Shown: piece after piece, positions 15,001 through 17,283 of the stretch
Numbering within the stretch: the stretch's first letter is position 1
Layout: each line of letters opens with the position of its first letter
Made by a program: the position numbers
Virus record (IMG/VR): IMGVR_UViG_2548877009_000010
Span: 1-17,283 of that record
DNA: 17,283 nucleotides
Direction: 5' to 3' (one strand)
Source: a virus
Lineage: Duplodnaviria > Heunggongvirae > Uroviricota > Caudoviricetes

Positions 15001-17283
15001 TCGCGTCAGTACAGTAAACGCGCTGGCGGCGGTGAATACCGGTCTTTCAGCTTGCTGGCTTTTTTGACAAGAGTTATTGGTGTGTCACGTTAACCGGAAA
15101 AGGGAAAAAGACATGCTGAAACAGCAGGATATGACCGAAACTGCCAGAGTGGTGTTTAATGAATTAAGCGTCACCGAACCGGCGACAGTCGGGGAGATTG
15201 CGCAGAATACGTACCTTTCACGCGAACGCTGCCAGCTAATACTGACCCAGCTTGTTATGGCGGGTCTGGCAGATTATCAGTTCGGTTGTTACAGACGCCT
15301 TCAGTCCTGAAGGCTTTTTTATTTGTGGTAAATGGGCGGCTGGTGGGTGTTAGGGGCACTCACCAGCCATCTGCTCATGCGTTGGGGTCACAAGCAAACC
15401 TCAGGCCCATCTGCTTTGCGCAAAAGCGGTATGAGCCTATCAGAGACAGGCTTAATGATCCATGTTTAATACTGTAAAAATATCCAGTTGTGAGTTGATC
15501 AACGCCGACTGCCTGGAATTTATCCGGTCGTTACCCGAAAATTCTGTTGACCTGATAGTCACGGACCCGCCGTACTTTAAAGTGAAGCCTGAGGGCTGGG
15601 ATAACCAGTGGAAGGGCGACGATGACTACCTGAAGTGGCTGGACCAGTGTCTGGCGCAGTTCTGGCGGGTGCTGAAACCTGCCGGAAGTCTTTACCTGTT
15701 CTGTGGCCATCGCCTGGCATCTGATATCGAAATCATGATGCGTGAACGCTTCAGTGTACTGAACCATATTATCTGGGCAAAGCCGTCCGGACGCTGGAAC
15801 GGGTGCAACAAGGAAAGCCTGAGGGCGTATTTCCCCGCCACAGAGCGCATTCTGTTCGCGGAACATTATCAGGGGCCGTATCGTCCGAAAGATGCCGGGT
15901 ATGAGGCGAAGGGCAGGGCACTGAAACAGCATGTGATGGCTCCGCTGATTGCTTACTTTCGTGATGCGCGTGCTGCCCTGGGGATAACGGCAAAACAGAT
16001 AGTGGATGCCACAGGAAAGAAAAACATGGTGTCGCACTGGTTCAGTGCCAGTCAGTGGCAGCTACCGAACGAAAGCGATTATCTGAAATTACAGGCGCTG
16101 TTTGCCCGGGTGGCAGAAGAGAAGCATCAGCGGGGGGAACTGGAGAAGCCCCACCACCAGCTGCTGGAGACGTATACTTCACTGAACCGGCAGTATGCGG
16201 AACTGCAGAGTGAATATAAGCATCTGCGGCGGTATTTTGGCGTGACGGCGCAGGTGCCGTACACGGATGTGTGGACGCATAAACCGGTGCAGTACTATCC
16301 CGGGAAACATCCGTGCGAAAAACCGGCAGAAATGCTGCAGCAGATAATCAGCGCGAGCAGTCGTCCGGGGGACCTGGTTGCAGATTTTTTCATGGGGTCG
16401 GGTTCGACAGTCAAAGCCGCGATGGCGCTGGGGCGTCGTGCAACTGGCGTTGAGCTGGAGACTGAACGTTTTGAGCAGACGGTCAGGGAAGTTCAGGATT
16501 TAGTCAGTCAGAACGGATGATATTGCAGGATTAGTTACGTACCGTTATTATCCTGCGCCCGGCCCTTTAGCTCAGTGGTGAGAGCGAGCGACTCATAATC
16601 GCCAGGTCGCTGGTTCAAATCCAGCAAGGGCCACCATATCACATACCGCCATTAGCTCATCGGGATAGAGCGCCAGCCTTCGAAGCTGGCTGCGCGGGGT
16701 TCGAGTCCTCGATGGCGGTCCATTATCGGTATTCAGCGTTGTTAGCTCAGCCGGACAGAGCAATTGCCTTCTAAGCAATCGGTCACTGGTTCGAATCCAG
16801 TACAACGCGCCATATTTATTTACCAGGCTCGCTTTTGCGGGCCTTTTTTATATCTGCGCCGGGTCTGGTGCTGATTACTTCAGCCAAAAGGAACACCTGT
16901 ATATGAAGTGTATATTATTTAAATGGGTACTGTGCCTGTTACTGGGTTTTTCTTCGGTATCCTATTCCCGGGAATTTACGATAGACTTTTCGACTCAACA
17001 AAGTTATGTCTCTTCGTTAAATAGTATACGGACAGAGATATCGACCCCTCTTGAACATATATCTCAGGGGACCACATCGGTGTCTGTTATTAACCACACC
17101 CCGCCGGGCAGTTATTTTGCTGTGGATATACGAGGGCTTGATGTCTATCAGGCGCGTTTTGACCATCTTCGTCTGATTATTGAGCAAAATAATTTATATG
17201 TGGCCGGGTTCGTTAATACGGCAACAAATACTTTCTACCGTTTTTCAGATTTTACACATATATCAGTGCCCGGTGTGACAACG

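What the first reader, a model, noticed from the sequence alone, without database searches (positions are those of the whole stretch)
15113..16520. Winged-helix ORF plus beta-class DNA methyltransferase sitting between tR' and the toxin tRNAs
A 65-aa HTH-like ORF bracketed by terminators is followed by a 352-aa DPPY...FxGxG methyltransferase with no nuclease partner in the window. Placed in the late operon, the MTase would be induced with toxin production and could protect progeny DNA from host restriction; the small ORF could be a controller (C-protein-like) or unrelated. Target specificity and regulation cannot be read from sequence.
Basis: inference. Interest (0 to 1): 0.55.

Follow-up and report, generated by a model that had tools for sequence, protein, structure and literature searches.

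The report
Phage non-specific adenine methylase module
The two genes are a very common prophage cassette, a small winged-helix protein plus a close relative of the known non-specific adenine DNA methylase M.EcoGII; the new item is an undescribed, conserved folded RNA leader between them that may keep this toxic enzyme switched off.

Summary
In detail: a 65-aa ORF (15113-15310) and a 352-aa beta-class MTase (15462-16520) lie between Q/tR' and the tRNAs and stx2A of a Stx2 prophage.

The MTase is not an unknown. It is at least 94% identical to M.EcoGII, the characterised non-specific N6-adenine MTase, and 99.4% identical to the phage 1720a-02 enzyme that the M.EcoGII paper names as a homologue. 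Its specificity can therefore be inferred. The cassette occurs in 2225 of 5426 complete E. coli genomes.

The small ORF is a real gene (dN/dS 0.04-0.15) with a winged-helix fold. It sits upstream of the MTase in about 75% of 325 related loci. It is not a C-protein: it has no Xre-type HTH, no C-box and no nuclease partner.

The unexpected result is the 135-nt spacer (15329-15464). It is a conserved RNA with a three-way junction and two hairpins, supported by strong covariation. It ends at the start codon and is found from lambdoid to N15-like, Vibrio and Aeromonas phages. It also precedes a non-homologous C5-MTase, and it matches no Rfam 15 family.

The gene content is ordinary. The regulatory RNA is a candidate new cis-regulator whose function is unproven.

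The parts
14205..14900 (+). Late antiterminator Q (231 aa)
   Evidence: PF06323 Phage_antiter_Q E=4.7e-84; phrog_304.
14971..14993 (+). tR'-like intrinsic terminator, the first terminator of the late operon. The sequence block shared with other Stx2 phages that carry different Q genes starts about here.
   Evidence: Terminator scan. Megablast matches to phages with other Q types start at query position 86, which is window position 14965.
15051..15088 (+). Conserved box in the 5' region of the small ORF (CTTGCTG-N11-CAGAGTTAyyTGTrTG). Role unknown.
   Evidence: Alignments of 20 and 37 non-redundant loci. It is not a good sigma-70 match and not a palindrome.
15113..15310 (+). 65-aa winged-helix protein (phrog_331); conserved partner gene of the MTase.
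15297..15324 (+). Hairpin plus T-run overlapping the stop codon of the small ORF; a second terminator-like site immediately 5' of the leader.
   Evidence: The hairpin is kept by compensatory changes in other genera. A terminator hairpin precedes the leader in N15, phiKO2, VHML and ARM81ld as well.
15329..15464 (+). Conserved structured RNA leader of about 135 nt. P1 (UGGGC/GCCCA) closes a three-way junction with hairpins P2 and P3. Hairpins P4 and P5 follow. The element ends at the MTase AUG (15462-15464).
   Evidence: Covariance model hit of 100.3 bits, E=2.6e-22. Covariation counts on an unfitted alignment and on a model-fitted alignment. Folding z-score -4.8. No Rfam family matches.
15462..16520 (+). 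Orphan beta-class N6-adenine DNA methyltransferase of the M.EcoGI/M.EcoGII family (352 aa).
   Evidence: PF01555. 328/349 residues identical to M.EcoGII. 99.4% identical to the phage 1720a-02 MTase, which PMC5778455 names as a homologue.
16561..16812 (+). Three phage tRNA genes (CAU, UCG, UCU anticodons; called ileZ-argN-argO in related records).
   Evidence: ARAGORN, Rfam, annotation of NC_049941.
16825..16854 (+). Terminator-like hairpin between the tRNAs and stx2A.
16903..17283 (+). 5' part of the Shiga toxin 2 A-subunit gene; the window ends inside it.
   Evidence: RIP domain PF00161 E=1.4e-7; position as in annotated Stx2 phages.

Best explanation
The window shows the late-regulatory end of a Stx2 lambdoid prophage.

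The 352-aa gene encodes an orphan phage DNA methyltransferase of the M.EcoGI/M.EcoGII family. By close homology it should methylate adenines in essentially any sequence context. The gene lies behind Q, pR' and two terminators, so it is transcribed only when Q-modified RNA polymerase reads through after induction. It would then hypermethylate replicating phage DNA, so that progeny escape many adenine-sensitive restriction systems in the next host. The enzyme is toxic and silent in lysogens, which explains the layered control.

The 65-aa gene is a genuine, selected winged-helix protein that usually travels with the MTase. Its role is not shown. My best guess is an accessory nucleic-acid-binding regulator of the cassette.

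The 135 nt between the two genes are not a spacer. They form a conserved folded mRNA leader ending at the MTase start codon. The MTase has no Shine-Dalgarno sequence, and thermodynamic predictions put the start region in a helix in the most stable fold but leave it free when the covarying three-way junction forms. I therefore propose a default-OFF translational lock, opened by an unknown factor: a protein, a metabolite such as SAM, or the folding kinetics of Q-modified transcription.

Shown here: gene identities, family membership, linkage, purifying selection, RNA covariation, and position at the start codon.
Inferred: non-specific activity of this particular enzyme, the anti-restriction role, the translational-switch mechanism, and any role for the winged-helix protein.
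For: MTase:
- PF01555, with DPPY at 35-38 and FMGSG at 310-314.
- 94% identity to M.EcoGII. That sequence was read from a machine-read supplement of PMC11551740, so 94% is a lower bound.
- 99.4% identity to the 1720a-02 MTase, which PMC5778455 names as a homologue.
- Homologues at 92-93% similarity are listed as 'nonspecific' in STEC methylome work.
- A locus encoding M.EcoGII itself (L099, 98.3% identical) has the same small ORF and leader.

Late-operon position: Q, two terminators, tRNAs and stx2A.

Small ORF:
- 335 homologous protein clusters.
- dN/dS 0.04-0.15; differences by codon position 1935/1678/5132.
- Winged-helix fold.
- Linkage to the MTase.
- Probable homology to N15 gp51: hhalign E=6.7e-5 and an iterated HMM search.

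Leader:
- About 80% nucleotide identity across genera where synonymous sites are saturated.
- On an unfitted MAFFT alignment, 86% of cells are paired against 26-40% for slid controls, and 17 pairs change on both sides.
- The covariance model finds exactly one hit per locus in 77 of 100 sources (410 kb). All are on the + strand and all end at the start codon of the MTase or a Com-like gene.
- On the fitted alignment, 25 of 28 pairs change on both sides; covariation score 0.40 against at most 0.063 for controls.
- A leader-first metagenome scan gave 68 loci followed by M.EcoGII-type MTases, 4 by non-homologous C5-MTases and 3 by holins.
- Fold predictions: in sequences whose MFE uses the alternative a:b pairing, 5-8 of the last 9 nt are paired. 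With the junction enforced, 0-1 are paired.
Against: - No experiment on this allele. Most of the roughly 20 differences from M.EcoGII lie in residues 181-275, which may include the target-recognition region.
- The proposed pairing of loop L3 with the translation-initiation region is not supported by covariation (66% paired, 11/500 shuffles).
- The alternative a:b pairing has only weak covariation.
- The consensus-constrained fold is on average 9 kcal/mol less stable than the MFE, and 17 kcal/mol less stable in the window. The junction may need a stabilising partner, or the energy model may be misleading.
- Three leaders precede a holin rather than an MTase. The element may belong to the start of the late operon in general.
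- 51 of 279 leader-bearing loci lack the winged-helix gene, so that protein is not essential for leader function.
- The CM-derived alignment is fitted to the model, which inflates pair counts.
Confidence: 0.7

Rival explanations
1. One reading: the small ORF is a controller (C) protein. It would bind an operator (C-box) upstream of itself and time the transcription of the MTase, as in type II restriction-modification systems.
For: Small DNA-binding-type fold. Fixed position just upstream of the MTase in lambdoid phages. A conserved box lies upstream of the small ORF.
Against: - No Xre-type HTH_3 match; the fold is winged helix.
- The conserved box is not palindromic, and the window has no operator-like inverted repeat.
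- There is no R gene to delay.
- The segment between the two genes is a covarying RNA structure, not an operator.
- In N15 and phiKO2 the homologue sits upstream of the late promoter and terminator.
- 51 leader-plus-MTase loci lack the small ORF.
Confidence: 0.1
2. The small winged-helix protein works on RNA or protein rather than as a transcription factor. One version makes it a functional analogue of Mu Com that binds the leader and opens the MTase start site. Another makes it a reader or modulator of m6A-DNA, or of the MTase itself.
For: - The architecture parallels Mu com-mom: a small protein gene, a structured leader and a toxic DNA-modification gene, silent in lysogens.
- Vibrio and Aeromonas relatives carry a true Com-like Zn-ribbon gene (PF10122) between the leader and the MTase, and mostly lack the winged-helix gene: 14 of 16.
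- Prokaryotic winged-helix domains that sense m6A are known (abstract of PMC11037411, listed).
- The default fold of the leader is predicted to hide the start codon.
Against: - No homology to Com: there are no CxxC pairs.
- The gene lies upstream of the leader, not between leader and MTase.
- The near mutual exclusivity with Com follows host phylogeny and may mean nothing.
- Many leaders have neither protein.
- There is no direct evidence of RNA or m6A binding.
Confidence: 0.25
3. The leader is not an MTase-specific translational switch. It would be a general element of the 5' end of the late transcript, for example a processing or stability determinant, or an RNA that acts on the elongating polymerase. 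MTases follow it only because they are usually the first late gene.
For: - A terminator hairpin always lies immediately 5' of the leader.
- Three metagenomic leaders are followed by holin and lysozyme genes.
- The leader precedes a Com-like gene rather than the MTase in Vibrio and Aeromonas phages.
- The L3 pairing with the initiation region is unsupported.
Against: - In the covariance-model hits on the MTase-centred loci, the element ends exactly at the start codon of the next gene. In the three holin cases found by the leader-first scan, about 90 further nt separate it from the start codon.
- The MTase lacks a Shine-Dalgarno sequence.
- Of 77 informative leader-first loci, 72 are followed by a DNA MTase gene (two of these cut or truncated), of two non-homologous families.
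- Phages such as 933W-type Stx2a phages that lack the MTase also lack the leader: all listed leader matches among phage records lie at an MTase.
Confidence: 0.2
4. The MTase is a sequence-specific Dam-like regulator of the phage life cycle (lysogeny or packaging control), rather than a non-specific anti-restriction enzyme.
For: Phage orphan MTases with regulatory roles exist, such as P1 Dmt and VT2 Dam. This allele has not been assayed. Its substitutions relative to M.EcoGII cluster in the central region.
Against: - 94% identity to M.EcoGII and 99.4% to the named 1720a-02 homologue.
- Relatives at 92-93% similarity are listed as non-specific.
- The true Dam homologues of Stx phages (M.EcoGV, M.EcoVT2Dam) are listed as separate enzymes in the same methylome study.
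- A position in the late operon is too late for lysogeny control.
Confidence: 0.05

Closest known systems
M.EcoGII / M.EcoGI (E. coli O104:H4 C227-11 prophage MTases; Murray et al. 2018, PMC5778455)
   Same: Beta-class order (DPPY, then TRD, then FxGxG). 349-352 aa. At least 94% identical. Prophage-borne, orphan, and in the same cassette: L099, which is M.EcoGII itself, has the same small ORF and leader.
   Different: About 20 substitutions, mostly in residues 181-275, and three extra C-terminal residues. The activity of this allele is untested. The published work does not describe the upstream small ORF or the leader.
Phage Mu com-mom operon
   Same: A toxic DNA-modifying enzyme that acts on adenines. 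It is expressed late and is silent in lysogens. A small upstream protein gene and an mRNA structure that hides the start site give post-transcriptional control. True Com-like genes occur in Vibrio and Aeromonas relatives of this cassette.
   Different: Mom is not a SAM-dependent methyltransferase (own knowledge). The window's small protein is a winged helix, not a Zn ribbon, and lies 5' of the leader. The leader is a 135-nt three-way-junction RNA, not a single hairpin (the Mu hairpin is from my own knowledge).
Controller (C) proteins of type II R-M systems
   Same: A small nucleic-acid-binding protein encoded just upstream of a modification or restriction gene.
   Different: C proteins are Xre-type HTH dimers that bind palindromic C-boxes and delay R-gene expression. 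Here there is no Xre domain, no C-box and no R gene.
N15 gp51-gp52, phiKO2 gp51-gp52 and PY54 ORF59-60 (linear plasmid prophages)
   Same: A homologous winged-helix gene, the same leader RNA (CM E about 1e-7 to 1e-20) and a 56-61% identical MTase as the first gene behind the late promoter and terminator, followed by lysis genes.
   Different: The annotated late promoter and terminator lie between the winged-helix gene and the leader. The P3 region of the leader is divergent.
Riboswitches and other cis-regulatory mRNA leaders (Rfam)
   Same: Position in the 5' UTR. A covarying multi-helix junction with highly conserved junction nucleotides. A possible alternative pairing. Association with non-homologous genes of one function (N6A and C5 DNA MTases).
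   Different: No Rfam 15 family matches. No ligand is known. Three cases precede a holin. The expression platform is unproven.

Membership tests
M.EcoGI/M.EcoGII family of non-specific N6-adenine DNA MTases | Beta-class N6_N4 MTase with an N-terminal DPPY catalytic motif and a C-terminal FxGxG SAM motif | tested here: met
   PF01555 E=5.8e-44. DPPY at 35-38 and FMGSG at 310-314.
M.EcoGI/M.EcoGII family of non-specific N6-adenine DNA MTases | Close full-length sequence identity to the characterised enzyme | tested here: met
   328/349 identical to M.EcoGII, a lower bound because the reference text was machine-read. 99.4% identical to the 1720a-02 MTase named as a homologue.
M.EcoGI/M.EcoGII family of non-specific N6-adenine DNA MTases | Methylates adenine in any sequence context | not testable with these tools
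   Needs a methylome, LC-MS or restriction-protection assay of this allele.
M.EcoGI/M.EcoGII family of non-specific N6-adenine DNA MTases | Prophage-borne orphan gene, with no cognate nuclease | tested here: met
   Stx2 prophage context. No REase in the 17.3-kb window.
R-M controller (C) proteins | Xre-type helix-turn-helix domain (HTH_3) | tested here: not met
   No such Pfam or NCBIfam hit. The weak hits are to winged-helix families, and the model is a winged helix.
R-M controller (C) proteins | Palindromic C-box operator upstream of the C gene | tested here: not met
   No conserved inverted repeat.
R-M controller (C) proteins | Controls an adjacent restriction endonuclease gene | tested here: not met
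   No REase gene in the window or in related loci.
TrmB/MarR-type winged-helix transcription factors | Significant match to the family profile | tested here: inconclusive
Mu Com-type translational activators | Com Zn-ribbon (PF10122, four Cys) | tested here: not met
   The window protein has only two conserved Cys and no PF10122 hit. PF10122 is found in the Aeromonas relative ARM81ld.
Structured cis-regulatory RNA (riboswitch-like leader) | Conserved secondary structure supported by covariation | tested here: met
   17 of 33 pairs (unfitted alignment) and 25 of 28 pairs (fitted alignment) change on both sides. Slid controls are 4 to 6 times lower in covariation score.
Structured cis-regulatory RNA (riboswitch-like leader) | Consistent 5'-UTR position upstream of functionally related, non-homologous genes | tested here: met
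   N6A-MTase (68 loci), C5-MTase (4) and Com-MTase. The exceptions are 3 holins.
Structured cis-regulatory RNA (riboswitch-like leader) | Ligand or factor binding, and a switch that controls expression | not testable with these tools
   Only thermodynamic predictions of two conformers are available. The L3 pairing with the initiation region is not significant.
Any Rfam 15 family | Covariance-model match | tested here: not met
   Over the leader there is no hit at gathering score and only chance-level hairpin matches (P26, mir-2008; 16-18 bits, far below their gathering scores) at E<=10. No hits in 8 diverse loci.

The most novel reading that the evidence does not exclude
The 135-nt leader would be a new class of regulatory RNA: a riboswitch, a protein- or kinetics-gated switch. 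It would act as a safety lock on toxic DNA-methyltransferase genes at the head of temperate-phage late operons, allowing translation only in a genuine lytic cycle. It occurs in about 41% of complete E. coli genomes and as far away as Vibrio and Aeromonas phages, yet is absent from Rfam. The small winged-helix protein may be its trans-acting key.
Probability: 0.3. Interest if true: 0.8.

Novelty: new variant of a known kind. Interest (0 to 1): 0.45.

Why it matters
M.EcoGII is a workhorse enzyme for chromatin and RNA footprinting. It is also the textbook example of a phage 'Trojan horse' anti-restriction methylase. It is known to be toxic and silent in lysogens, but how that silence is enforced has not been described.

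This cassette sits directly upstream of stx2 in many Shiga-toxin phages and is present in two of every five sequenced E. coli genomes. A conserved, covarying leader RNA at its start codon, shared with a non-homologous C5-MTase and with Com-containing relatives, gives a concrete and testable handle on that regulation. It may also be an orphan regulatory RNA class in the best-studied bacterium.

For the finding as originally phrased, the practical message is that the gene pair is ordinary and its specificity can already be inferred.

Tried and rejected
1. Hidden coding in the spacer. The 45-aa ORF at 15332-15469 is broken by a TAG at codon 8 and by 1-nt indels in other genera. Rejected.
2. Rfam search of the leader, at gathering score and at E<=10, in the window and in 8 diverse loci. 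Only chance-level hairpin hits overlap it.
3. RNAalifold on 20 close sequences gave almost invariant pairs and a long-range helix that more distant sequences do not keep. It was replaced by a hand-built three-way-junction model.
4. Pairing of loop L3 (GAUCA) with the pre-AUG UGAUC. L3 is identical to the 16S rRNA 3' tail segment GAUCAC, which made this attractive. Covariation is not significant, so it is kept only as a possibility.
5. C-box or operator search upstream of the small ORF. Nothing palindromic was found. The sigma-70 scan found no + strand promoter there.
7. PADLOC: the small ORF has no meaningful defence-system match.
8. Literature searches for a described leader, for N15 gp51/gp52 function, or for induction-dependent M.EcoGII methylation in Stx phages found nothing specific in the held library.
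9. The first viral-contig scan with the MTase alignment returned only relatives at least 94% identical. It was useful for linkage but not for covariation. Diversity came from scans seeded with the N15, VHML and Providencia enzymes.
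Full report
**1. What is in the sequence**

The window is the left arm and late-regulatory region of a Stx2 lambdoid prophage. In order it carries:
- an integrase and an exonuclease at the start of the window;
- immunity and replication genes;
- ydfU/DUF968 (12793-13842) and RusA (13855-14214);
- Q (14205-14900, PF06323);
- the two ORFs of the finding;
- three tRNAs (16561-16812);
- the start of stx2A (16903 onward, RIP domain).

These assignments rest.

Terminator-like hairpins lie at 14971-14993, directly behind Q, and at 15297-15324, overlapping the stop codon of the small ORF.

**2. The methyltransferase is a known enzyme family**

Pfam gives PF01555 (E=5.8e-44). DPPY is at residues 35-38 and FMGSG at 310-314, which is the beta-class order.

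The decisive comparison is with M.EcoGII, the non-specific adenine MTase of E. coli O104:H4 (Murray et al. 2018, PMC5778455).
- Its sequence, read from the supplement of the SUPREM paper (PMC11551740), is 328/349 identical to the window protein. Several of the mismatches are machine-reading errors in that text.
- The window protein is 99.4% identical to the MTase of phage 1720a-02, which Murray et al. explicitly name as 'very similar'.
- Relatives at 92-93% similarity are listed as 'nonspecific' in a STEC methylome study.
- One fetched locus, L099, encodes M.EcoGII itself (98.3% to the machine-read text) and has the same small ORF and spacer.

The statement that specificity cannot be read from sequence is therefore too pessimistic. 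By close homology the enzyme is expected to methylate adenines in any context, although this allele is untested.

The literature describes M.EcoGII as silent in the lysogen and toxic when expressed, and assumes it is switched on as the prophage enters lytic growth. The position found here, behind Q, pR' and tR', fits that picture.

The cassette is very common:
- 2225 of 5426 complete E. coli genomes carry it, with a median of two copies and up to nine.
- Among phage records it occurs in part of the Stx2a phages, in Stx2c, Stx2d and Stx2e (phiP27) phages, and in mEp460, SfV, cdtI and others.

**3. The small ORF is a real gene, but not a C-protein**

Evidence that it is a real, selected gene:
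- It matches phrog_331 (E=1e-37) and 335 protein clusters from Escherichia, Shigella, Salmonella, Klebsiella, Citrobacter, Buttiauxella and others.
- Against 18 orthologues, dN/dS is 0.04-0.15 where it can be computed. Synonymous sites are saturated at dN of about 0.1. Differences by codon position are 1935/1678/5132.

Evidence on the fold:
- An AlphaFold2 model (pLDDT 74) has three helices and a wing.
- Pfam hits to winged-helix families are all below cut-off.

Evidence on linkage to the MTase:
- The small ORF lies about 150 nt upstream of an M.EcoGII-like MTase in all 17 species genomes found through the small ORF and in two phages.
- It is present in all 76 MTase-ascertained viral contigs that have enough upstream sequence.
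- It is present in Stx2c phages and mEp460, at only 48-51% identity.
- Over 325 more diverse loci, 240 have it and 85 do not.

N15, phiKO2 and PY54 carry a probable homologue, gp51/ORF59 (hhalign E=6.7e-5 plus an iterated HMM search). There, however, it lies upstream of the annotated late promoter and terminator.

The defining features of a C-protein all fail. There is no Xre-type HTH, no palindromic C-box and no nuclease gene. A conserved box upstream of the small ORF (15051-15088) exists, but it is neither a good promoter nor a palindrome.

**4. The spacer is a conserved structured RNA**

Aligning the region across genera showed that the 135 nt between the two genes are more conserved than the codons of the small ORF. 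Blocks such as AAATGGGCGGCTGGTGGGTGTT, GGTCACAAGC and AAGGCCCA are invariant. Identity to the window is about 80% where synonymous sites are saturated. The segment is not coding, because stop codons and 1-nt indels break every frame.

The same element is recognisable upstream of MTases that are only 50-61% identical, in N15, phiKO2, PY54, Vibrio phage VHML and Aeromonas phage ARM81ld. About 240 further viral loci supplied 58 non-redundant versions.

The structural model, from 5' to 3':
- P1 (UGGGC/GCCCA) closes a three-way junction.
- Hairpin P2 is highly variable in sequence.
- Hairpin P3 has a loop that ends in GAUCA, GGUCA or AGUCA.
- The junction strands are conserved (CAUU and AACCAAG).
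- Hairpins P4 and P5 follow.
- The start codon comes next.

Support for the model:
- On a MAFFT alignment of 29 diverse sequences, not fitted to any structure, 86% of cells pair against 26-40% when the 3' partners are slid. Seventeen pairs change on both sides, and 0 of 500 shuffles reach the observed values on four of the five measures (15 of 500 on the fifth).
- A covariance model built from that alignment found 77 hits in 100 sources (410 kb, both strands). There was one hit per locus, always on the gene strand, and always ending at the start codon of the MTase or of a Com-like gene. N15, VHML and ARM81ld were among them.
- On that model-fitted alignment, 25 of 28 pairs change on both sides. 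P1 is 99% paired, with variants UGGC/GCCA, UGGGG/CCCCA and UGGGCA/UGCCCA. The covariation score is 0.40 against at most 0.063 for controls. Model fitting favours the modelled structure, so this result is read together with the unfitted one.
- No Rfam 15 family matches any version. I found no description in the searchable literature.

**5. What the leader is attached to**

I ran a leader-first scan of metagenome contigs with a pattern drawn only from the leader. It returned 80 loci, of which one was a chance match. The other 79 divide as follows:
- 68 are followed by an M.EcoGII-type MTase.
- 4 are followed by a non-homologous C5-cytosine MTase (PF00145).
- 3 are followed by holin S and lysozyme.
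- 2 are followed by an IS insertion.
- 2 run off the contig.

In Vibrio and Aeromonas phages, a Mu Com-like Zn-ribbon gene (PF10122) sits between the leader and the MTase. Among phage records, all listed nucleotide-level leader matches lie at an MTase gene. Stx2a phages without the MTase lack the leader too.

The leader is always preceded by a terminator hairpin. It therefore marks the first gene behind the late terminators, and that gene is almost always a DNA MTase.

**6. How it may work (inference)**

Three points suggest translational control:
- The MTase start has no Shine-Dalgarno sequence. The conserved pre-AUG sequence is UGAUCY.
- In the window, the minimum-free-energy fold (-61.9 kcal/mol, z=-4.8) pairs the 5' strand of P1 with the 5' strand of P3. 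It buries the start region in a long-range helix.
- Across 72 leaders, 37 adopt this alternative pairing as their MFE, with 5-8 of the last 9 nt paired. When the covarying three-way junction is enforced, those nucleotides are mostly free.

The alternative pairing is possible in 89% of cells, but it has only weak covariation. A direct pairing of loop L3 with the start region is not supported.

I therefore propose a default-OFF translational lock that opens when the three-way junction is stabilised. The stabiliser is unknown. Candidates are the winged-helix protein (by analogy with Com on Mu mom mRNA), a metabolite such as SAM, or the co-transcriptional folding imposed by fast, pause-resistant Q-modified polymerase.

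Two observations keep a more general 'start of late transcript' role alive: the three holin cases, and the 51 leader-bearing loci without the winged-helix gene.

**7. Verdict**

The finding as written describes a correctly observed but ordinary and already characterised gene family, plus a conserved hypothetical partner. The controller idea fails its membership tests. The value added here is the undescribed leader RNA, which is well supported as a structure and unproven in function.

Scores:
- Confidence is about 0.95 that the MTase belongs to the M.EcoGII family.
- Confidence is about 0.85 that the leader is a conserved structured RNA.
- Confidence is about 0.5 that the leader controls MTase translation.
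- Confidence is about 0.25-0.3 that the winged-helix protein or a small molecule is its effector.
- Overall interest is 0.45: low for the gene pair, substantially higher for the RNA.

Noticed in passing
window 15329-15464 (also L101 1873-2003, L103 1819-1964, L100 1702-1831, L369 about 7781-7905): The spacer between the small ORF and the MTase is a conserved, covarying RNA of about 135 nt: a three-way junction plus two hairpins, ending at the start codon. It is present from lambdoid to N15-like, Vibrio and Aeromonas phages and has no Rfam 15 match.
   Followed up: yes
L350, L369 (7903-8937), L385, L409: The same leader precedes a non-homologous C5-cytosine DNA methyltransferase (PF00145) instead of the N6-adenine enzyme. 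In L393, L401 and L416 it precedes holin S and lysozyme.
   Followed up: partly
L100 1829-2044; L108 1340-1465; L193-L209: Vibrio and Aeromonas relatives carry a Mu Com-like Zn-ribbon gene (PF10122) between the leader and the MTase. Most of them lack the winged-helix gene.
   Followed up: partly
L211 about 1000-1200 (also L202-L227, L231): A second, unrelated conserved leader precedes the MTase in one Vibrio phage group (UGAUGCCUUGAGUACCUGAGACCCA...UGGAGAGGAAGCA...hairpin...UUCAAGGCUCU). It also has no Rfam match.
   Followed up: partly
window 15051-15088: A conserved box lies 25-60 nt upstream of the small ORF (CTTGCTG-N11-CAGAGTTAyyTGTrTG) and is shared by lambdoid-type loci of many genera. 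It is not a convincing sigma-70 promoter and not a palindrome, though it may form a small hairpin (CUGG/CCAG changing to CUGU/ACAG).
   Followed up: partly
window 14907-14994: The segment between the end of Q and the first terminator looks like the short pR'-tR' transcript of lambdoid phages. It gives weak, sub-threshold Rfam similarity to isrK and other Hfq-type sRNAs (E about 0.07-0.5). A StxS-like sRNA would be expected here (own knowledge), but this was not tested.
   Followed up: no
window 14965 onward compared with L001, L002 and L005-L019: The block from terminator through small ORF, leader and MTase (in the Stx phages also the tRNAs and stx) is combined with at least three unrelated upstream contexts: a PF06323 Q, short Q-like genes, and GIY-YIG or HNH genes. 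It behaves as a mobile module whose left boundary is at the tR' hairpin.
   Followed up: partly
window 16561-16636: ARAGORN calls the first tRNA tRNA-Met (CAU). Related phage records annotate it as ileZ (tRNA-Ile). A further terminator-like hairpin (16825-16854) lies between the tRNAs and stx2A.
   Followed up: no
L336-L347 (Providencia-type loci): Some loci keep the winged-helix gene and the MTase but have a shortened, degenerate leader that lacks the P1 3' strand. These are possible natural loss-of-lock variants.
   Followed up: no
window 1-1131 and H91 (PPompW prophages): The left half of the window is 86% identical to 'PPompW' prophages, which have tRNAs and an IS element directly after Q and lack the cassette and stx. 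This illustrates that the cassette is variably present at this position.
   Followed up: no
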